Source: Eubacteriales bacterium
GTDB taxonomy: Bacteria > Bacillota > Clostridia > Oscillospirales > CAG-272
Length of the DNA: 64,000 nucleotides
Direction of reading: 5' to 3'
Assembly (NCBI GenBank): GCA_045658525.1
Contig: JAZOVD010000030.1
Location: 25,714 to 89,713, forward strand
A model generated the notes under the pieces. It searched no databases and was not told the origin of the DNA. It saw nothing but the letters and a program-made list of their open reading frames with translations. The translations under genes and the position numbers were made by a program. How positions within the stretch are numbered: position 1 is the stretch's first letter; every line of letters begins with the position of its first letter. Positions 29,880 to 36,020 of the stretch are shown piece by piece.

Positions 29880-31880
29880 ATGAAACTCAGAGCACCATCA
29901 GTACCTCTTATAACAGTTGATCCCTATTTTTCGGTTTGGTCATCCGCGAACAGACTTACCGATAAGCCTACCTGCCATTGGACTGATAGAAGCAGCCCGA
30001 TTGCAAGAACGGACTATCCTACCGAAGGTCACCGTCCGAACTCTATGCTCGGTCTGGTAACTATCGACGGCACGACCTATCGTTTTATGGGCGTTTCCGA
30101 TCATCCCGTGATAAAGCAGACAGATCTTGATATAGATGCTCTTTCAACTACATATACCTTTGAGACAGATGATGTGACGGTCAAGGCATCCTTCCTTGCA
30201 CCGATGCTTCCCGACGACTTTGAGCTTATCAGCAGACCCGTAAACTACTTAAAGCTTACTTACGCTCCGAGAGACGGCAAAAAGCATAACGTTTCTTTCA
30301 GTGTTTCCGTTTCCGAGGAGATATGCTTGAATAAGGCAGGACAGTCGCCTGTTGTTTGTGAGGACGTTGAGCTTGTAATTCCCTGCAAAAGAATGGGCAA
30401 CTCCGAGCAGAACGTACTTAACCGCTCGGGCGACGACGTTCGTATAGATTGGGGTTACTTCTACCTTGCCGTAAAGGGAGAGGGAGCTTCCGTTAAGACG
30501 GAGAATGTCGATTACTATCGCGCGGCAAAGCCTAAGACCGAGCCTGAAAAGGCAAATCTTACCTCACTTACCGCGACAGCTGACGGAGAGGCACTCGTGC
30601 TTTTCGCTTATGACGATATAAAGAGTCTGCGCTACTTCGGCGCTGACCTTACTTCCTATTGGAACAAGGACGGAATGACCATAGAGATGGCTATGGAAAA
30701 GGCTCTTGCGTCTTACGACAGACTTGTAAAGAAGTGTAAGGAGTTTTCCGATAAGCTCTACCTTGATGCCGTAAAGGCGGGCGGAGAGAAGTATGCTGAT
30801 ATACTTTCTCTTGCGTACCGTCAGGTATTTGCCGCCCATAAGCTCGCCGTTGACACTGAGGGCGAGATAATCTGGGTATCAAAGGAATGTTTCAGTAACG
30901 GCTGTGCGGTCACGGTTGACGTAAGCTATCCGTCTATACCGATATTCCTTCACTATAACCCCGAGCTTGTAAAGGGTATGATGCGTCCGATATTCAAGTA
31001 TGCGGCGATGCCCGAATGGGAGTTCGACTTTGCTCCGCACGACGTAGGACAGTACCCGATAATCGAGGGTCAGGTCTATGGCAAGGATAAGGAGACGGGC
31101 AAGCAGAGACTTCATATGCAGATGCCCGTTGAGGAGTGCGGAAACATGCTCGTTATGGCGGCGGCTACCGCTATTGCTCAGGGCAACACCTCGTTTGTCC
31201 GTGACCATATCGAGATGCTTGAACAGTGGGCTAAGTACCTTATAGAGTTCGGTCAGGATCCCGAAAATCAGCTCTGTACGGACGACTTTGCGGGACACCT
31301 CGCTCACAACTGCAACCTTTCTCTTAAAGCCATTATGGGACTTGCTTCGCTTTCCATCATCTTCAAGATGCTCGGAAGCAAGAGAAAGGCGGCTACGTAT
31401 ATGAAGCTTGCCGAGGATATGGCTGACGTTTGGAGCATCACCGCCGACAACGGCGACGGAAGCTACAAGCTTGCGTTTGACCGCGAGGGAACGTTCTCGA
31501 TGAAGTACAACGCCGTATGGGATAAGCTTTTCGGCACTCAGATATTCGCGCCCGAGCTTATAAGAAGCGAGGTTCTCTCCAATTTCAGTCACTTCGGAAC
31601 GTACGGTATGCCGCTTGACAACCGCGCGCTCTACACCAAATCCGACTGGCTCGTCTGGACTGCGACGATGTGCGAAACGGACGACGAATTCCGCGCGTAC
31701 ATAGATCCGCTTTGGAAAGCGTATCACAACTCTCCCACGAGAGTTCCGCTTACCGACTGGTACGACACGGCGACCTCTCTTATGGTAGGCTTCCAGCATA
31801 GAACCGTTCAGGGCGGACTGTTCATAAAGCTTATGGAAAAGGATTTCAGAGAAAAGAGCAGACGCATACTTTCTAAGTAA
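29880..31880 (+). CDS. glutaminase-A-like putative glycoside hydrolase (DUF4965/DUF1793 type)
   Basis: The N-terminus MKLRAPSVPLITVDPYFSVWS and the overall 666-aa layout resemble the family usually annotated as glutaminase domain protein. Assignment is by recognition only. Confidence 0.65.
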   Translation: MKLRAPSVPLITVDPYFSVWSSANRLTDKPTCHWTDRSSPIARTDYPTEGHRPNSMLGLVTIDGTTYRFMGVSDHPVIKQTDLDIDALSTTYTFETDDVTVKASFLAPMLPDDFELISRPVNYLKLTYAPRDGKKHNVSFSVSVSEEICLNKAGQSPVVCEDVELVIPCKRMGNSEQNVLNRSGDDVRIDWGYFYLAVKGEGASVKTENVDYYRAAKPKTEPEKANLTSLTATADGEALVLFAYDDIKSLRYFGADLTSYWNKDGMTIEMAMEKALASYDRLVKKCKEFSDKLYLDAVKAGGEKYADILSLAYRQVFAAHKLAVDTEGEIIWVSKECFSNGCAVTVDVSYPSIPIFLHYNPELVKGMMRPIFKYAAMPEWEFDFAPHDVGQYPIIEGQVYGKDKETGKQRLHMQMPVEECGNMLVMAAATAIAQGNTSFVRDHIEMLEQWAKYLIEFGQDPENQLCTDDFAGHLAHNCNLSLKAIMGLASLSIIFKMLGSKRKAATYMKLAEDMADVWSITADNGDGSYKLAFDREGTFSMKYNAVWDKLFGTQIFAPELIRSEVLSNFSHFGTYGMPLDNRALYTKSDWLVWTATMCETDDEFRAYIDPLWKAYHNSPTRVPLTDWYDTATSLMVGFQHRTVQGGLFIKLMEKDFREKSRRILSK

Positions 31881-31896
31881 TAAAATAAAATAAAAT

Positions 31897-31938
31897 CTCC
31901 GCATCTGTATGTACAAAGACGGGTGCGGAGTTTTGTTT
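31897..31938 (+). terminator. terminator hairpin
   Basis: CTCCGCATC-N15-GGTGCGGAG followed by TTTTGTTT. Confidence 0.6.
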
Positions 31939-31975
31939 ATTGTGCACAAATCATTCGACTTAACACGATAACTTA

Positions 31976-32004
31976 TTGACATATAAACCCTTTTATAGTA
32001 TAAT
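31976..32004 (+). promoter_or_regulatory. consensus sigma-A promoter of the 32-36 kb island
   Basis: TTGACA (31976-31981), 17 nt, TATAAT (31999-32004). The leader is about 110 nt. Confidence 0.65.
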
Positions 32005-32115
32005 ATAGGTGTAAGGAGGACGAAGAATATTTACGGCAAAGGTAAAAACATAGGCAAATACACAAGTAAACAAAGGTTTTTCATCACTTTTCTGACTACG
32101 AAAGGAGAAAGTAAA

Positions 32116-34839
32116 ATGAAAAAAAGAACTTTAACAAAAATTCTTACACTTCTGCTCACTTTGTGCATTCTGTCAGTATCGGTTATGCCGATATTCGCCG
32201 CAAGTATCACTACCGACAGCGAGGTACTGACAGGCGAGGACATAGTAAAAGAGGATGAAACAAAGCGTGAGCGCTTTTCAAAGCATTTCTTAACGGGTGA
32301 CGGCAGTTATTTTGCCGTTGCGTACGCGTCACCGGTAAATTATATGGACGACGACGGTACTTGGAAAGAAGTCGATAACACTATGACCACGAATATTTTT
32401 ACCGGCGACAAAACAACTAAAAACGATAAATTTAAAGTAAAATTCTCAAACAAAGCAAATAAAGATAAGTTAGTTACCATACAGACAGACGAATTCAAGG
32501 TCTCGTGGGGGCTTAGTATATCGGGTGACGGAGAAAACTACGGTAAATTAAGTTCTGTAAAGGGCGCAGCAAGCTACGACGCGAGTGAGCCAAAGACCAC
32601 CAAAGAGGCGACCAAGCTCGGAAAAGCTGTTTCGTCTATGAAATATGAAAACGTTTACGACGGCAAGGTGGATTTGCAGTATAGCGTTTCTCACGAAAAA
32701 GTAAAAGAGAACGTTGTTTTAAAAGAAAAAACGGATTTCGTTTCGTATCGCGTAACGTATAACATAAAAGATACCGCAACGGAGCTTCTTTCCGACGGAA
32801 GCGTTATCTTCCGTGACACGGATGGAAACGTACTTTTTGAGGTTGGCGCACCCTTGATGTGGGATGAAGCCGGCGAAAGCTCCTCGGATATAGCCGTCAG
32901 CGTTGAGCATACCTCAAAGAAAACGGTGGAGATAACCTATACACCAAGCGCGGAGTGGTTAAACTCCGATGAGAGAGTTTATCCTATCGTGGTTGATCCG
33001 TATATGGAAACCTCACAAGAAACAAGCAATATTATGGACACGAGAGGTTATTATTATTATCCGCTTGATGCACAATATGAGGCTACCGCGCCCGCGCTGA
33101 TAGTTGGTTTTGATTATTTAGTGTATCTTAAAATATTAAATGTTCCGCTACTTCCGGCTGGTATGACGGTACAGAGTGCTAATCTTGTAATATACGGAAG
33201 CGACTTACAAATACCAACGGATGGTGCTGATGACTTGTTTTACGGTTTAGGTAAAGTCACTCAGTCTTGGACGGATGAACTGTTCGTAAGCGATGATGAA
33301 GAATATAATGAGCGTGTAAATCCGGATAACGCCTACGAAATGTTTGGAGCTGGGAATTTCCCCTCTGTTAGCATGTATGCTTATTATGACGTATATGAGG
33401 ATATTGTGTACGATTGGAATGGTATATATTATTCGAATCTTGATATTCCAAGTGATTTTTGGAATACTTCCGGGGGCTATAATCAATATTTTTCCACATA
33501 TAAGGGATTCCAAATTTCCCTCGACTATAGATGTGGCTGGCAGTTGTATTCCGGAGATTTTTATGATGAATATTATCGTCCATCTCTTTCGGTGAGATAT
33601 TCGGTACCTTCCGGACCTAATATTTCAAGCGATAATTTTTACAGAATAAAAAATAAATACACTGGAAAGTATCTTACCATAGGAACTGATAATGCTACGG
33701 GAATTACTAATGTGTATCAATCAAACCTTATACCTGATCCGAGCAGTCAAGTATTTAAATTTGAATATAGCCACGTAAGAGGAGCTTATCAAATAAGAAC
33801 TTATAGCTCTGTTATTTCAAATAGCGACAATGGATATATAAATTTTGACCCATCACAATTTCCATATATGCTACCAAGTAATTATTCAAATGCCGAAATA
33901 GGTCAAGACATATATAACTGGATAATATCTGCAGTGGATAGTACATCTGTTTCAGCGGGATATACCATAACTTATACCAACATGCCTTCTTTTGGACTTC
34001 GCGCTTACGGAGCTAAGAACGGAACTCCGCAAAACACAGGACAGAATAACGGAAATATTGGTGTAGGTTATACCGCAGCTGGTGCCAATGGTAGCGCATG
34101 GGTATTTGAAAGATATGATGTACCTGCTAATTTAGCCCTTAATATGGTTGGAATACGAGAGGAGAATTTTAATAATCATGTTACTAGTGTAACATCAAAT
34201 TTTGTAGGATTGGGTTATGATCCGAATGACGATATGTATATAAATACTGATATGTCATACGATGTAGATGAATTTATATCTATGCTTGAAAATGCTGAGA
34301 TAAGTATAGTTTCTTCGCACGGTGAACAAAACGCAATAAATATTACTTATGAGGGCATACAAATAACCGGTTCGGATTTTAAAACATATGTTCAGACTCA
34401 ATCGGAAGAATATGGTCAGGAAAACTATTATCAATATGTGGATTTAAGTCATGTAGAATTGGTGGTATTATCAACGTGTCTTAATGCGTCAGGGGTTGGT
34501 TATAATGATACTGTTGTAGTTGTTTCGCCAACTTCTTCTCCGCGTAATATGATGGAGATGCTAATAAAATGCGGTGTAAAATGTGTAATAGCATTTGAAG
34601 ATGAGGTGGGTGAAATAGATGGAAGTGAATTTTGTATAGATTTATTTACCCAATTAAACTCCAAAGTTAATAATAAATACTTAACATTGGAGCAAGCATT
34701 GATTGCTATATATGATGAGGGAGGATATTCAACAATTCCTTGGGCTAACGTTGTAGTCGGTGTACGCGAAGCTGGTATGGAGGATAGAACCCTTGAGGAT
34801 ATGTTGTCAGCTTATAGAGAGGATAACTATGGTACATAA
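32116..34839 (+). CDS. secreted multidomain protein: WapA/Rhs-style N-terminal region + DNRLRE-like domain + ricin-type lectin-like domain + CHAT/caspase-like C-terminal domain
   Basis: Signal peptide MKKRTLTKILTLLLTLCILSVSVMPIFA. N-terminal region ERFSKHF...YPIVVDP. LPAGMTVQSANLVIYGS...VTQSWTDE is DNRLRE-like. YRIKNKYTGKYLTI...SQVFKFE...GSAWVFERYD is beta-trefoil-like (nt about 33630-34120). ISIVSSHG (His735, nt 34318) and LVVLSTCLNASG (Cys788, nt 34477) have CHAT-like spacing. Confidence 0.8.
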   Translation: MKKRTLTKILTLLLTLCILSVSVMPIFAASITTDSEVLTGEDIVKEDETKRERFSKHFLTGDGSYFAVAYASPVNYMDDDGTWKEVDNTMTTNIFTGDKTTKNDKFKVKFSNKANKDKLVTIQTDEFKVSWGLSISGDGENYGKLSSVKGAASYDASEPKTTKEATKLGKAVSSMKYENVYDGKVDLQYSVSHEKVKENVVLKEKTDFVSYRVTYNIKDTATELLSDGSVIFRDTDGNVLFEVGAPLMWDEAGESSSDIAVSVEHTSKKTVEITYTPSAEWLNSDERVYPIVVDPYMETSQETSNIMDTRGYYYYPLDAQYEATAPALIVGFDYLVYLKILNVPLLPAGMTVQSANLVIYGSDLQIPTDGADDLFYGLGKVTQSWTDELFVSDDEEYNERVNPDNAYEMFGAGNFPSVSMYAYYDVYEDIVYDWNGIYYSNLDIPSDFWNTSGGYNQYFSTYKGFQISLDYRCGWQLYSGDFYDEYYRPSLSVRYSVPSGPNISSDNFYRIKNKYTGKYLTIGTDNATGITNVYQSNLIPDPSSQVFKFEYSHVRGAYQIRTYSSVISNSDNGYINFDPSQFPYMLPSNYSNAEIGQDIYNWIISAVDSTSVSAGYTITYTNMPSFGLRAYGAKNGTPQNTGQNNGNIGVGYTAAGANGSAWVFERYDVPANLALNMVGIREENFNNHVTSVTSNFVGLGYDPNDDMYINTDMSYDVDEFISMLENAEISIVSSHGEQNAINITYEGIQITGSDFKTYVQTQSEEYGQENYYQYVDLSHVELVVLSTCLNASGVGYNDTVVVVSPTSSPRNMMEMLIKCGVKCVIAFEDEVGEIDGSEFCIDLFTQLNSKVNNKYLTLEQALIAIYDEGGYSTIPWANVVVGVREAGMEDRTLEDMLSAYREDNYGT

Positions 34840-34840
34840 G

Positions 34841-35980
34841 ATGAAACTGATTCATAAAATCTTAATTCCAATAGCCGCGCTTGTTATAGTTTTTTGCAAT
34901 CTTTTTCTGTTATTTGGATATCAATATGATATTTGTTTTGAAACAACAAGCTCGTATTTTGAAAAAAAAGCAAATCAAACATTGGCTGCGGAACATAAGC
35001 TATATCCTAAATACGATGTTTTTTATTCCTCTACGGACTATGATGTTTTTGAAAAAACGTTAGAGCTTGATGGCATAACGTACACCTGTAAGTCAACACA
35101 TTCGGCATTTTATGAGGATTATAGATACCATACAGAATACTATTCGTTCAAGTCGGAATATGGAGAATTTGTAAGCTTCGAGGCTTACGGAGACCAAATA
35201 TATTCTCTTACCTTTCAGCAAAAAAAATCTGATACCGACACCGGAAAACCTTCTCGGGAGCTTGTATATGAGTACGTTGAGAGATATTGCGGAAGCGTTT
35301 TAATGGATTATAGCGGGGATTTATATGAGGATTATAAATATATTAGTTATACTCCGTATGACCTCGCACATAATAATCGAGATTATGTATATTATGATTT
35401 TCTTGATTTAGGAAATTGTCATCTCCTTGTAAAATATGCTGACGGAAAGCCTACGAACGATATAATAAAGGTCACTTTGACAAACACGGGCGATTTGCGC
35501 GAAATACGAATGTTAGGATTCCCAATTTTCCCAGATACGGAAGTGAAAATTCCCGAAAACATCTTGAAAAACGCCGTTTGCAGATATTTTGACAATCATT
35601 CAAAGAAATATATAGAACTTGCCCACTCCGATGATGTTATAGACGAATTTGAATTGGGCGATTTTGAGAGCATACGTATATTTAAAACTCCGCTTGGAGA
35701 ATACGGAGCAAGAGGTTGGATAAAAGTTACCTACAACAAATATAACGGGTACGTTTATGACAAAGAAACGGATAGCTTTGTTCTCGGAGAGCCGACCACG
35801 GTAACCGACAATATTTTTATATCAACCATGCTTACCTCACCTGACGTTATTGTAAAGACAGTTATAGCGATAGCGTTTGAAACATTGTGTCTCGGATATA
35901 TAGTGACCGTTATAGTTATGTATATTATCAGACGCAAAAAATCCACCATTCCCACCGAACAGGAAGAACAAACCGAATAA
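34841..35980 (+). CDS. Tyr/Asp-rich membrane protein with TM helices at both ends, unknown family
   Basis: ATG 34841 begins 1 nt after the upstream TAA (34837-34839), which suggests translational coupling. N-terminal TM ILIPIAALVIVFCNLFLLFGY, C-terminal TM VIAIAFETLCLGYIVTVIVMYII followed by RRKK. The 34760 start overlaps the upstream gene and is rejected. Confidence 0.75.
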   Translation: MKLIHKILIPIAALVIVFCNLFLLFGYQYDICFETTSSYFEKKANQTLAAEHKLYPKYDVFYSSTDYDVFEKTLELDGITYTCKSTHSAFYEDYRYHTEYYSFKSEYGEFVSFEAYGDQIYSLTFQQKKSDTDTGKPSRELVYEYVERYCGSVLMDYSGDLYEDYKYISYTPYDLAHNNRDYVYYDFLDLGNCHLLVKYADGKPTNDIIKVTLTNTGDLREIRMLGFPIFPDTEVKIPENILKNAVCRYFDNHSKKYIELAHSDDVIDEFELGDFESIRIFKTPLGEYGARGWIKVTYNKYNGYVYDKETDSFVLGEPTTVTDNIFISTMLTSPDVIVKTVIAIAFETLCLGYIVTVIVMYIIRRKKSTIPTEQEEQTE

Positions 35981-36020
35981 ACCCAAAGCCGTCGCGAAAG
36001 CGCCGGCTTTGGGTTTTATC
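35981..36020. terminator. bidirectional terminator between convergent genes
   Basis: ACCCAAAGCCG-N12-CGGCTTTGGGT followed by TTTTATC. Confidence 0.7.

What the first reader, a model, noticed from the sequence alone, without database searches (positions are those of the whole stretch)
33000..35980. Compositional break inside the ORF: C-terminal modules and the downstream gene look like a swapped-in cassette
- **G+C drop.** Single 60-nt lines upstream of about 33.0 kb count near 47-50% G+C (for example 32941-33000). Lines at 33601-33660 and 35341-35400 count near 28-30%.
- **Codon habit.** It shifts from the host style (ACG/GCG/CCG/TCG, GAC, GGC) to NCA/NCT, GAT, AAT and TAT codons. The change starts inside the 907-aa ORF, just after the conserved YPIVVDP region, and continues through the coupled downstream gene to the terminator at 35981.
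- **Interpretation.** A conserved N-terminal trunk with a compositionally foreign C-terminal payload and an adjacent small partner gene is the layout of polymorphic toxin/immunity loci such as Rhs, WapA and CdiA. If that holds here, the lectin plus CHAT-like payload and the membrane partner would be a new effector/partner pair.
Basis: partly seen in the sequence, partly recalled or inferred. Interest (0 to 1): 0.68.

Follow-up and report, generated by a model that had tools for sequence, protein, structure and literature searches.

The report
Swappable secreted protease with membrane partner
The composition break is real and falls at the joint where a family of secreted gut-Clostridia proteins keeps a constant front end but swaps its enzyme-bearing back end together with a matching downstream membrane-protein gene, which is the layout of bacterial toxin/immunity loci, although toxicity and protection have not been tested.

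Summary
**Observation: confirmed.**
- GC3 in the 907-aa ORF falls from 0.47 to 0.26. The best change point is codon 328; the support interval (codons 281-485) includes the YPIVVDP motif at codons 289-295. No permutation out of 1000 reached this score.
- The first 295 codons ("trunk") use host-like codons. The remainder (GC3 0.27) and the coupled downstream gene (0.34) lie below every host-gene window.

**Interpretation: supported as a layout.**
- Relatives share the trunk but diverge right after the R[VA]YP..DP motif. P0002 and P0005 are 95% identical in the trunk, 26% just after it, and end in unrelated domains.
- C-termini across the family are CHAT/caspase-like, M10 metalloprotease, lipase, M23 peptidase, RHS or an unknown type.
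- The immediately downstream gene follows the C-terminal type, not the trunk. Some relatives carry extra partner genes in arrays.
- The trunk-above-rest GC3 step recurs in 11 of 13 lineages.

**Best reading.** This is a two-gene operon for a Sec-secreted, lectin-bearing CHAT-like protease and its cognate membrane-tethered partner. It is an RHS-less variant of WapA-type polymorphic effector/immunity systems.

**Not shown.** Toxicity, immunity, and a swap in this particular genome are inferred. The window holds no orphan cassettes.

The parts
31897..31938 (+). Putative terminator of the upstream glutaminase-A-like gene: inverted repeat CTCCGCA...TGCGGAG followed by TTTTGTTT
   Evidence: Read by eye from the sequence. 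The consensus terminator scan did not flag it because the loop is long.
31976..32004 (+). Promoter-like site for the two-gene operon: TTGACA, 17 nt, TATAAT (12 of 12 matches)
   Evidence: This is a consensus match only.
32102..32107 (+). Ribosome-binding site AAGGAG, 8 nt before the ATG
   Evidence: Sequence.
32116..34839 (+). ORF907, the secreted multidomain effector (907 aa)
   Evidence: ORF list. A 100% identical database protein, P0001, exists, and 15 homologues were found.
32116..32199 (+). Sec signal peptide, aa 1-28 (MKKR..., hydrophobic core, IFA then AS)
   Evidence: Read from the sequence. A28 is invariant in the trunk alignment.
32200..33000 (+). Conserved trunk, aa 29-295, with host-like codon use. 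No Pfam, NCBIfam or PDB sequence match.
   Evidence: It is 55-63% identical to relatives, whose trunks are up to 97% identical to each other. GC3 is 0.478. No domain hits were found. The trunk also heads the RHS protein P0016.
32980..33000 (+). Junction motif YPIVVDP (aa 289-295). In the family it reads R[VA]YP[IV]x[VIL]DP, and identity between relatives collapses just after it.
   Evidence: G+C falls from 0.50 to 0.30 between the 60-nt lines on either side.
33001..33606 (+). Variable post-trunk domain, aa 296-~497: a divergent DNRLRE/CBM96-like module, and the first low-GC3 segment
   Evidence: It occupies the same position as the DNRLRE_dom and CBM96 hits in distant relatives. hhalign against those regions gives probability 85.5%, E = 5.6e-6. 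ORF907 itself gets no direct HMM hit.
33607..34116 (+). Ricin-type beta-trefoil lectin domain, aa ~498-667
   Evidence: Pfam RicinB_lectin_2 scores 17.3 bits, below the 25.6 cut-off. The aligned region in relatives scores 50-64 bits.
34117..34836 (+). C-terminal CHAT/caspase-like (clan CD) cysteine protease domain, aa ~668-907, with His735-Gly736 and Cys788
   Evidence: Pfam CHAT scores 14.7 bits here, below the cut-off of 24. Its homologues P0002 (28.2) and P0010 (24.1) pass and align with it at about 30% identity. H, G and C are invariant in the domain alignment. The top 17 Foldseek PDB hits of the AlphaFold model are all separase or CHAT proteases, although the model is weak: pLDDT 58.9, TM 0.32-0.42.
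34841..35980 (+). Partner gene (379 aa; alternative start at 34829 overlaps the ORF907 stop). It has an N-terminal TM helix, an extracytoplasmic domain of about 310 aa, a C-terminal TM helix and an RRKK tail.
   Evidence: ORF and sequence. Hydropathy shows TM helices at residues ~1 and ~336. It matches P0017 exactly. It is a distant member of partner family c (hhalign 94.9%, E = 4.3e-8). No known domain was found. GC3 is 0.34.
35979..36016 (.). Hairpin (17-nt arms, 94% complementary, 4-nt loop) between the convergent partner and GDSL genes; a likely bidirectional terminator and the end of the low-GC block
   Evidence: (I3) and the sequence.

Best explanation
**What it is.** Positions 31976-36016 form a self-contained two-gene operon in an uncultured Oscillospiraceae-like gut Clostridium.

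**Gene 1.** It encodes a Sec-secreted effector built in modules:
- a signal peptide;
- a conserved trunk of about 270 aa;
- a divergent DNRLRE/CBM96-like domain;
- a ricin-type lectin;
- a C-terminal CHAT/caspase-like cysteine protease (His735/Cys788).

**Gene 2.** It is translationally coupled to gene 1. It encodes a membrane protein with two TM helices whose large central domain faces outward.

**Family behaviour.** The pair belongs to a polymorphic family.
- The trunk is retained and tracks host codon usage.
- Everything 3' of the R[VA]YP..DP joint, or in some pairs of a second joint about 120 codons later, is replaced by recombination together with the downstream gene(s).
- The replaced part comes from an AT-richer, horizontally circulating pool. 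That is why GC3 steps down at nt ~33000 and stays low to the terminator.

**Inferred mechanism.**
1. The effector is exported.
2. The lectin and CBM modules bind cell-surface glycans of neighbouring bacteria.
3. The protease attacks exposed envelope proteins.
4. The partner, displayed on the producer's own membrane surface, binds and neutralises the cognate C-terminal domain, acting as an immunity protein or self-protective inhibitor.

**Shown:** the composition break, the mosaicism and its junction, the co-variation of partner with C-terminal type, and the domain assignments (the last at moderate strength).

**Inferred:** export, the target, toxicity, the partner's protective role, and the direction and timing of the swap in this genome.
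For: **Composition.** The GC3 and codon-use step is real and sits at the motif.

**Operon anatomy.** There is a perfect promoter match, an RBS, 1 nt between the stop and the next ATG, and a terminal hairpin.

**Mosaicism (identity in trunk / next 200 aa / last 230 aa).**

| Pair | Trunk | Next 200 aa | Last 230 aa |
|---|---|---|---|
| P0002 vs P0005 | 95% | 26% | 14% |
| P0002 vs L016 | 97% | 54% | 13% |
| P0004 vs P0009 | 89% | 20% | 20% |
| P0006 vs P0007 | 93% | 26% | P0006 is only 677 aa, not comparable |

**DNA-level breakpoints.**
- L003 vs L045: 87% identity over codons 40-302, then no similarity until the shared downstream gene (96.8%).
- L001 vs L005/L016: 89% identity from -248 to codon ~418, then nothing.

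**Payload diversity on the same trunk.**
- CHAT and M10.
- LCAT/PGAP1-like lipase and Peptidase_M23.
- RHS.
- An unknown type X.

**Partner co-variation.**
- The three CHAT-type effectors of the close clade (window, L001, L002) are followed by family c, two-TM proteins.
- Three of the four M10-type effectors (L003, L044, L048) are followed directly by family d lipoprotein-like proteins. In L045 a family-e gene comes first and the family-d gene second.
- Most lipase-type effectors are followed by ~250-aa lipoproteins sharing a motif.
- Type X is followed by two small polytopic membrane proteins.
- All 29 locus pairs with similar partners also have similar C-termini. None of the 178 pairs with dissimilar C-termini has similar partners.
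- L001's trunk is closer to M10-type P0003 (82%) and P0004 (75%) than to CHAT-type P0010 (64%) or the window protein (62%), yet its partner groups with the CHAT loci.

**Orphan partner genes.** L003 and L045 (M10-type) carry extra family-c genes further downstream.

**GC3 step in relatives.** Trunk GC3 exceeds the rest in 11 of 13 dereplicated lineages, mean +0.117, Wilcoxon p = 0.005.

**Link to known toxins.**
- S. suis WapA has the layout Sec signal, unknown N-terminal domain, DNRLRE domain (PMC12704120).
- Caspase-like and metallopeptidase toxin domains with Sec-type export are catalogued in polymorphic toxin systems (PMC3482391).
Against: - No experiment or direct computation shows toxicity or protection.
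- The closest full-length relative is only 44% identical. A swap in this lineage, or an empty site, therefore could not be shown. The neighbourhood of a related genome's FucI gene is not syntenic.
- The window holds no orphan cassettes or extra partner genes.
- The payload (lectin plus protease, about 600 aa) and the partner (379 aa, membrane-bound) are much larger than typical toxin tips and cytoplasmic immunity proteins.
- There is no RHS cage or other known translocation device. That fits only an extracellular mode of action.
- The CHAT assignment for ORF907 itself is below Pfam's cut-off, and the structure model is low-confidence.
- The partner model failed (pLDDT 43), so nothing is known about how it might bind.
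- In some distant relatives trunk GC3 (0.67-0.76) exceeds what the flanks suggest. Part of the step may therefore be trunk enrichment rather than foreign origin of the rest.
- Loci are few and partly related, so the co-variation counts are not independent events.
Confidence: 0.6

Rival explanations
1. Non-antagonistic secreted glycoprotein protease. The lectin-protease acts on host or dietary glycoproteins, or remodels the producer's own surface. Its variable modules reflect substrate diversity. The downstream membrane protein is an anchor, maturation factor or self-protective inhibitor, as in protease-inhibitor operons, rather than an immunity protein in bacterial warfare.
For: - Ricin and CBM96-like modules are typical of secreted glycan-directed enzymes.
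- M10 and CHAT domains are general proteases.
- The window neighbours are glycan-use genes: glutaminase-A-like six-hairpin protein, GDSL esterase, fucosidase and fucose isomerase.
- There is no translocation device.
- From my own knowledge: operons pairing a secreted protease with a cognate extracytoplasmic inhibitor exist, for example AprA-AprI and serralysin-Inh.
Against: - The operon has its own promoter, terminator and composition. The neighbours differ in every related locus, so it is not part of a conserved glycan-utilisation cluster.
- The same trunk carries a peptidoglycan-type M23 peptidase, lipases and an RHS toxin cage.
- Arrays of extra, non-cognate partner genes (L003, L045) are hard to explain for a housekeeping anchor.
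- The cassette-like replacement with sharp junctions is typical of conflict systems.
Confidence: 0.25
2. The composition step arose in place rather than by import. The conserved trunk keeps, or gains through recombination-linked GC-biased conversion, GC-ending codons. The fast-evolving remainder and the partner gene drift towards A/T under weak constraint. On this reading the break marks different evolutionary regimes, not a recently swapped cassette in this genome.
For: - The step recurs in 11 of 13 lineages whatever the payload.
- In several distant members trunk GC3 (0.67-0.76) is above what flanks of 0.48-0.50 G+C suggest.
- No close relative documents a swap in this lineage.
- The decline may be graded, 0.47 to 0.34 to 0.24.
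Against: - In the window the trunk is host-like (z = -1.1). The remainder is the part that deviates, lying below every host window (z = -4.7).
- Family members demonstrably replaced the 3' part with non-homologous domains, so import does occur.
- In L003 the whole gene is low in GC3 (0.32 / 0.27), which fits whole-locus transfer.
- The two explanations are not mutually exclusive.
Confidence: 0.3
3. Intracellular CHAT-protease defence or signalling module, like Craspase, SAVED-CHAT or the DdvA anti-sigma factor, rather than a secreted effector.
For: The Foldseek hits of the C-terminal model are to separase, SAVED-CHAT, Csx29 and DdvA.
Against: - The N-terminal signal peptide is conserved across the family.
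- Lectin, Big_2 and CBM modules are extracytoplasmic types.
- There are no PADLOC or PHROG hits.
- No sensor domains or CRISPR/CBASS neighbours are present.
Confidence: 0.03
4. Assembly artefact: the break is a chimeric join in a metagenome-assembled contig.
For: The source is probably a MAG, to judge from the cluster names. MAG contigs can be chimeric.
Against: - The reading frame runs straight through the junction.
- BLAST alignments to independent relatives span it without interruption, for example window aa 3-631 with P0003.
- The same step appears in independently assembled loci L001, L002 and L016.
Confidence: 0.02

Closest known systems
WapA/Rhs-type Sec-dependent polymorphic toxins of Firmicutes (B. 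subtilis WapA; S. suis WapA, PMC12704120)
   Same: - Both have a Sec signal, an unnamed N-terminal domain and a DNRLRE domain at the front.
- A true RHS protein (P0016) carries this same trunk.
- Both have variable C-terminal payloads and a coupled downstream gene.
- From my own knowledge: a compositionally distinct, AT-richer 3' end is a known trait of E. coli Rhs tips.
   Different: - ORF907 has no RHS/YD repeats, DUF6531 or LysM.
- Its payload is a lectin plus a large protease rather than a small nuclease-type tip.
- The partner is a 379-aa membrane protein facing outward, not a small cytoplasmic immunity protein.
CdiA/CdiI contact-dependent inhibition
   Same: - Both have a conserved N-terminal part and a short junction motif after which sequences diverge. 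From my own knowledge that motif is VENN in CdiA; here it is R[VA]YP..DP.
- Both have a cognate downstream gene.
- Extra orphan partner genes occur in some loci.
   Different: - CdiA is a Gram-negative two-partner-secretion protein with filamentous haemagglutinin repeats, and none are present here.
- CdiA toxins act in the cytoplasm.
Streptomyces umbrella toxin particles (PMC11062931, PMC13274773)
   Same: Diversified lectins direct a polymorphic antibacterial toxin to species-specific cell-surface glycans (abstracts).
   Different: - Umbrella toxins are multi-protein particles (UmbA/B/C) with separate lectin subunits.
- They are found in actinobacteria, not Clostridia.
- Here lectin and enzyme sit in one chain.
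Envelope-acting effectors with extracytoplasmic immunity: T7SS TelC/TipC (PMC5555719, PMC6193138); T6SS Tle lipases with Tli (my own knowledge)
   Same: - The toxin acts outside the cytoplasmic membrane, and the immunity protein is membrane-tethered on the outer face.
- The lipase-bearing relatives here pair with lipoproteins in the same way.
   Different: - Those effectors use a different secretion route (T7SS or T6SS) and different enzyme families.
- They have no lectin modules.
CHAT / clan CD proteases (separase, Csx29 Craspase, SAVED-CHAT, DdvA)
   Same: - The predicted fold and the His-Gly...Cys catalytic dyad match.
- Pfam CHAT passes its cut-off in the homologues P0002 and P0010.
   Different: - Those proteases are intracellular and regulated.
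- This one is secreted and fused to lectins.
- Its sequence family is very small: 10 hits among 1.84 billion representatives.
ABP diffusible polymorphic toxins of Gram-positives (PMC13460014)
   Same: Both are Sec-secreted, diffusible polymorphic toxins of Gram-positive bacteria.
   Different: - ABP systems need a co-secreted serine protease and use a cytoplasmic immunity protein (abstract).
- Neither is present here.

Membership tests
Polymorphic toxin system (sensu Zhang et al. 2012, PMC3482391) | Conserved N-terminal trafficking or presentation region shared among family members | tested here: met
   The trunk is 52-97% identical among 13 close members. It is recognisable at about 30% identity in roughly 30 further loci.
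Polymorphic toxin system (sensu Zhang et al. 2012, PMC3482391) | C-terminal domains replaced by recombination, with non-homologous alternatives behind near-identical N-termini | tested here: met
   - P0002/P0005: 95% identity falls to 26%, and the C-termini are unrelated.
- P0004/P0009: the DNA breakpoint is at codon 302.
- L001/L005: the breakpoint is at codon ~418.

This is shown for relatives, not for the window gene's own lineage.
Polymorphic toxin system (sensu Zhang et al. 2012, PMC3482391) | Immediately downstream gene that co-varies with the C-terminal domain (cognate immunity) | tested here: met
   Co-variation was found: 29 of 29 partner-similar pairs are also similar at the C-terminus, against 0 of 178 pairs otherwise. 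The partner follows the payload type, not trunk relatedness. The protective function itself is untested.
Polymorphic toxin system (sensu Zhang et al. 2012, PMC3482391) | Orphan toxin or immunity cassettes nearby | tested here: inconclusive
   None occur in the 64-kb window. Extra partner genes do occur in L003 and L045. No trunk-less toxin cassettes were seen.
Polymorphic toxin system (sensu Zhang et al. 2012, PMC3482391) | Toxicity to target cells, neutralised by the partner | not testable with these tools
   This needs experiments.
Rhs / WapA | RHS/YD repeat shell (with DUF6531 and a C-terminal cleavage motif) | tested here: not met
   ORF907 has no RHS, YD or DUF6531 hit in Pfam or NCBIfam. 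Only the distant relative P0016 has them.
CdiA | TPS domain, filamentous haemagglutinin repeats and a VENN junction | tested here: not met
   No such Pfam or NCBIfam hits were found. The junction motif is different.
CHAT domain (PF12770) / clan CD peptidase | Score above the Pfam gathering threshold | tested here: not met
   ORF907 scores 14.7 bits against a cut-off of 24. Its homologues P0002 (28.2) and P0010 (24.1) pass, and ORF907 aligns to them at 29-34% identity.
CHAT domain (PF12770) / clan CD peptidase | Conserved His-Gly and Cys catalytic dyad on a caspase-like fold | tested here: met
   H, G and C are invariant in alignment A5; they are His735 and Cys788 in ORF907. The top 17 Foldseek PDB hits are separase or CHAT proteases, E from 2.6e-4, but TM is only 0.32-0.42 and model pLDDT is 58.9.
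Ricin-type beta-trefoil lectin (PF14200) | Score above the Pfam gathering threshold | tested here: not met
   ORF907 scores 17.3 bits against a cut-off of 25.6 at aa 505-564. The aligned region of relatives scores 50-64 bits, so it is probably a divergent member.
DNRLRE domain (NF033679) / CBM96 (PF24517) | HMM match in the post-trunk region | tested here: inconclusive
   ORF907 and its close family get no direct hit. Distant relatives hit at the same position. Profile-profile comparison gives 85.5% probability, E = 5.6e-6, over 83 columns.

The most novel reading that the evidence does not exclude
This would be a previously undescribed, RHS-less, Sec-dependent polymorphic effector system of gut Clostridia.
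- A WapA-type trunk carries lectin and CBM modules.
- These modules aim interchangeable envelope-attacking enzymes at the surface glycans of competitors. The enzymes are a CHAT protease, an M10 protease, a lipase and an M23 peptidase.
- Each enzyme type is matched by its own new family of membrane-tethered, outward-facing immunity proteins.
- The R[VA]YP..DP motif serves as the recombination joint, as VENN does in CdiA.
- The window pair would be a new CHAT-effector/immunity pair, and an extracellular antibacterial role for a CHAT protease would be new.
Probability: 0.4. Interest if true: 0.7.

Novelty: new variant of a known kind. Interest (0 to 1): 0.56.

Why it matters
- **A gap in known toxin systems.** Polymorphic toxin/immunity systems are well mapped in Proteobacteria and in T7SS-bearing Firmicutes. 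Sec-secreted ones in the dominant gut Clostridia are barely known.
- **A tractable family.** It has a defined junction motif and at least six payload types.
- **New protein families.** Several partner families and the trunk itself have no Pfam, NCBIfam or PDB relative.
- **What it would give if the inferred function holds:**
  - lectin-guided, envelope-acting antibacterial enzymes, each with a matched inhibitor;
  - an extracellular role for a CHAT protease;
  - a simple genomic marker (conserved trunk, motif, GC3 step, coupled membrane-protein gene) for finding such loci in metagenomes.
- **Methodological point.** A within-gene GC3 step found by eye correctly located a recombination joint.

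Tried and rejected
**Look-ups that failed**
- The window's own genome or strain relatives could not be found. Exact-protein look-ups of ORF907, the glutaminase and the GDSL gene all failed.
- The neighbour of P0044, the only close partner homologue, could not be fetched.
- A related genome found through FucI (L050) is not syntenic, so an empty site could not be tested.

**Structure**
- AlphaFold of the partner failed (pLDDT 43.4, pTM 0.34), so no fold search was attempted.

**Database searches with no result**
- Sequence searches of PDB with the trunk profile, ORF907 and the partner profile found nothing.
- PADLOC and PHROGs gave no hits.
- Rfam on 31-37 kb found nothing, and there are no tRNAs in the window. 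There is therefore no riboswitch or tRNA integration site.
- The repeat search found no flanking direct or inverted repeats that suggest a mobile element.

**Analyses that were uninformative**
- A codon-likelihood index against host genes did not separate trunk from rest (z = -1.2 vs -1.7), because host codon bias is weak. GC3 and per-amino-acid codon ratios were used instead.
- Partner families b and c could not be linked (hhalign 12.8%).

**Readings considered and dropped**
- A PepSY-like or propeptide-like reading of the partner motif (KY.DGKPT) came from memory and has no tool support, so it was dropped.
- The idea that the CHAT domain is only a releasing peptidase was rejected by position: nothing lies C-terminal to it.

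Full report
**1.

The line just after the motif, 33001-33060, is already 0.30.
- Sliding windows show a low-GC block from about 31.9 to 36.0 kb (0.32-0.42), against flanks near 0.50.
- Raw G+C is partly a matter of amino-acid content, so I used third codon positions.
  - In the 907-codon ORF (32116-34839) the maximum-likelihood change point is codon 328 (nt ~33100), LLR 19.4. None of 1000 permutations reached it (largest 10.5).
  - GC3 is 0.47 to the left and 0.264 to the right.
  - The support interval is codons 281-485. Codon 295, the last residue of YPIVVDP at nt 33000, scores 18.6, nearly the maximum.
- Against 214 host-gene windows of equal size (mean 0.541, minimum 0.447), the trunk is ordinary (0.478, z = -1.1). 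The remainder (0.271, z = -4.7) and the downstream gene (0.340, z = -3.5) lie below every host window.
  - GAC per Asp: 0.52 / 0.52 / 0.21
  - AAC per Asn: 0.67 / 0.75 / 0.24
  - GGC per Gly: 0.30 / 0.44 / 0.06
  - NCG share: 0.37 / 0.30 / 0.19
- The block ends at a 17-bp-arm hairpin at 35979-36016.

**2. Anatomy of the locus**

- Upstream are TruB and a glutaminase-A-like six-hairpin protein on the + strand. Downstream, and convergent, are a GDSL esterase, an alpha-L-fucosidase and L-fucose isomerase.
- Between them lies a self-contained unit:
  - a perfect TTGACA-17-TATAAT match at 31976-32004;
  - AAGGAG 8 nt before the ATG at 32116;
  - ORF907;
  - 1 nt between its TAA and the ATG of the next gene at 34841, with an alternative ATG at 34829 that overlaps the stop;
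  - the terminal hairpin.
- ORF907 starts with a typical Sec signal peptide (MKKR..., hydrophobic core, IFA then AS).
- The partner (379 aa) has TM helices at both ends and an RRKK tail after the second. By the positive-inside rule this places its ~310-aa middle outside the cell.
- No Rfam family, tRNA or flanking repeat suggests a riboswitch or a mobile-element border.
- FucI cluster names point to an uncultured Oscillospiraceae/Ruminococcaceae-like Clostridium.

**3. Domains**

- Pfam and NCBIfam give ORF907 only two sub-threshold hits: RicinB_lectin_2 at aa 505-564 and CHAT at aa 775-878.
- Homologues make the picture firmer.
  - The aligned lectin region scores 50-64 bits in relatives.
  - The C-terminal domain aligns at about 30% with those of P0002 and P0010, which pass Pfam's CHAT cut-off.
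  - His-Gly and Cys are invariant across five caspase-like C-termini; these are His735 and Cys788 here.
- An AlphaFold model of aa 661-907 is weak (pLDDT 58.9, pTM 0.66). Even so, its top 17 Foldseek PDB hits are all separase or CHAT proteases (E from 2.6e-4, TM 0.32-0.42).
- The domain family is tiny. An exhaustive HMMER scan of 1.84 billion representatives found 10 proteins at E <= 1e-3, and those whose sequences were read (P0002, P0010, P0045-P0048, P0050, P0051) carry a caspase-like His-Gly...Cys domain, most with an upstream ricin-type lectin.
- The post-trunk region (aa 296-~497) sits where distant relatives have DNRLRE_dom/CBM96. It matches those regions profile-to-profile at 85.5% probability, E = 5.6e-6.
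- The trunk (aa 29-295) matches nothing in Pfam, NCBIfam or PDB.

**4. The family is mosaic, and the joint is the motif**

- Sixteen database proteins and about 40 loci carry the trunk.
- All end the trunk with R[VA]YP[IV]x[VIL]DP.
- Segment-wise identities show sharp discontinuities (trunk / next 200 aa / last 230 aa):

| Pair | Trunk | Next 200 aa | Last 230 aa |
|---|---|---|---|
| P0002 vs P0005 | 95% | 26% | 14% |
| P0002 vs L016 | 97% | 54% | 13% |
| P0004 vs P0009 | 89% | 20% | 20% |
| P0006 vs P0007 | 93% | 26% | P0006 is only 677 aa, not comparable |

- At DNA level, L003 (P0004) and L045 (P0009) share 87% identity over codons 40-302 and then nothing. Similarity resumes only at a shared downstream gene, at 96.8%.
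- L001 (P0002) and L005/L016 share 89% identity from 248 nt upstream to codon ~418 and then nothing.
- There are thus at least two joints, the commoner one being the motif.
- Payloads on this trunk include:
  - CHAT/caspase-like domains;
  - M10-type metalloprotease (HEIGHALxLxH);
  - an unknown type X;
  - in more distant members, LCAT/PGAP1-like lipase, Peptidase_M23 and a full RHS protein.
- The window protein lacks the Big_2 and second ricin segment that P0002 and P0010 have.

**5. The downstream gene follows the payload**

- In most complete loci a gene for a signal-anchored, lipoprotein-like or membrane protein follows within about 0-30 nt (L001: 70 nt); exceptions are L012, L013, L015 and L017.
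- In the close clade:
  - The three CHAT-type effectors (window, L001, L002) are followed by family c, which are two-TM proteins of 379-415 aa. L001 and L002 are linked by BLAST. The window partner joins by hhalign at 94.9%, E = 4.3e-8.
  - The M10-type effectors (L003, L044, L048, L045) are followed by family d lipoprotein-like proteins. In L045 a family-e gene comes first.
  - Type X (L005/L016) is followed by two small polytopic membrane proteins.
- In the distant clade:
  - Most lipase-type effectors (L007, L008, L010, L021, L031) pair with ~250-aa lipoproteins that share a motif; L030's partner is instead a 167-aa polytopic membrane protein.
  - Caspase-like effectors pair with 347-377-aa lipoproteins.
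- Across 22 loci, all 29 pairs with BLAST-similar partners also have similar C-termini. None of the 178 pairs with dissimilar C-termini has similar partners.
- This is not just overall relatedness. L001's trunk is nearer to the M10-type P0003 (82%) and P0004 (75%) than to the CHAT-type P0010 (64%) or the window protein (62%), yet its partner groups with the CHAT loci.
- L003 and L045 (M10-type) also carry extra family-c genes further downstream. These are orphan partners, as in toxin/immunity islands.
- The window itself has no further trunk, payload or partner copies.

**6. The GC3 step is a family trait**

- Trunk GC3 exceeds the rest in 11 of 13 dereplicated lineages, with a mean difference of +0.117 (Wilcoxon p = 0.005).

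| Locus | Trunk GC3 | Rest GC3 |
|---|---|---|
| Window | 0.48 | 0.27 |
| L001 | 0.55 | 0.31 |
| L002 | 0.49 | 0.32 |
| L016 | 0.55 | 0.28 |

- In these four the trunk resembles the host and the rest does not, which fits a resident trunk and an imported remainder.
- In some distant members the trunk is richer than the flanks suggest. Trunk enrichment, for example through recombination-linked biased conversion, may therefore contribute.
- Either way the step marks the recombination joint. By itself it does not date a swap here.

**7. How it most likely works**

Shown:
- a secreted-type multidomain protein with lectin modules and a clan-CD protease dyad;
- a translationally coupled, outward-facing membrane partner;
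- modular replacement 3' of the trunk;
- co-variation of partner and payload.

Inferred:
1. The protein is exported by Sec.
2. The lectin and CBM modules bind surface glycans of neighbouring bacteria.
3. The protease cuts exposed envelope proteins.
4. The partner on the producer's surface binds and blocks its cognate domain.

Support for the inference:
- The payload spectrum of the wider family (lipase, M23 peptidoglycan peptidase, proteases) consists of enzymes that can act on a Gram-positive envelope from outside without translocation. This explains why ORF907 has no RHS cage (its relative P0016 has one) and why partners are membrane-tethered rather than cytoplasmic.
- Analogues exist:
  - TelC/TipC, where the toxin acts in the inner wall zone and the immunity protein is membrane-anchored;
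  - T6SS lipases with periplasmic immunity (my own knowledge);
  - lectin-guided umbrella toxins;
  - caspase-like and metallopeptidase toxin domains with Sec-type export, catalogued by Zhang et al. 2012.
- S. suis WapA has the same layout of Sec signal, unnamed N-terminal domain and DNRLRE domain; sequence relatedness was not tested.

I put 0.6 on this overall reading. The polymorphic layout is much more certain (about 0.9) than the antagonistic function (about 0.5).

**8. Rivals**

- **Non-antagonistic glycoprotein protease with an inhibitor or anchor partner (0.25).** It fits the lectins and the glycan-use neighbours. It fits poorly with the changing neighbourhoods, with M23, lipase and RHS payloads on the same trunk, and with orphan partner arrays.
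- **In-place compositional divergence (0.3).** This is not exclusive of the main reading and cannot be excluded for this genome.
- **Intracellular CHAT defence module (0.03).** The signal peptide, the extracytoplasmic domains and the lack of PADLOC hits argue against it.
- **Chimeric assembly (0.02).** Alignments to independent relatives span the junction, and the same step occurs in independent assemblies.

**9. Membership and novelty**

- ORF907 is not an Rhs/WapA or CdiA member, because the defining repeats are absent.
- It meets the structural criteria of a polymorphic toxin system: a constant N-terminus, recombining C-termini and a co-varying downstream gene. It lacks functional proof, and orphan cassettes are absent from the window.
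- The trunk and all partner families have no curated model or solved relative.
- I rate it a new variant of a known kind, with interest 0.56.

**10. Dead ends**

- Exact look-ups for the window's genome and for P0044's neighbour failed.
- The FucI-based relative is not syntenic.
- The partner structure model failed.
- Two fold libraries were unavailable.
- A codon-likelihood index was uninformative.
- Partner families b and c could not be linked.

Noticed in passing
window 34841-35980 (partner) versus P0044: The partner's only close homologue (65% overall) shows patchy identity. Residues 1-21, 140-169 and 285-344 are 90-97% identical, while residues 22-79, 110-139 and 170-257 are 43-54%. This suggests local diversification or a mosaic within the partner. 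P0044's own neighbouring gene could not be retrieved.
   Followed up: partly
L005 10001-10320: The trunk of this MAG copy has an in-frame stop after ...TDKE. The 95%-identical copy in L016 is intact. This is either a pseudogene or an assembly error.
   Followed up: partly
L016 7-525, minus strand: A second, diverged trunk-like fragment (34% identity to window trunk aa 50-230) lies upstream of the main gene in the opposite orientation.
   Followed up: no
L044 6951-13700; L003 2744-6569: The P0003 locus is followed by WYL, Peptidase_S24, M78 and PemK-toxin genes, a mobile-element or prophage-like neighbourhood. The P0004 locus has TIR- and SIR2-domain genes just upstream.
   Followed up: no
L003 7125-16260 and L045 3643-9835: Two related strains share nearly identical partner genes (95-97%) in a different order around different effector variants. 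They also share a third small two-TM family ('e', 254-279 aa, KKRKRK tail), which lies upstream of the effector in L003 and downstream in L045.
   Followed up: partly
window 5618-6277, minus strand: This is the only other clearly low-GC ORF in the window (219 aa, G+C 0.37, GC3 0.37). It was not annotated.
   Followed up: no
window 30879-31982, minus strand: A 367-aa ORF runs antisense inside the glutaminase-A-like gene. It is almost certainly spurious, because the + strand gene has strong Pfam hits.
   Followed up: partly
L014, L024, L026, L031 trunk regions: Trunk GC3 of 0.67-0.74 is well above what flanks of 0.48-0.50 G+C suggest (flank G+C was measured for L014, L026 and L031 only). The trunk may be GC3-enriched, possibly through biased gene conversion at a recombination anchor.
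   Followed up: no
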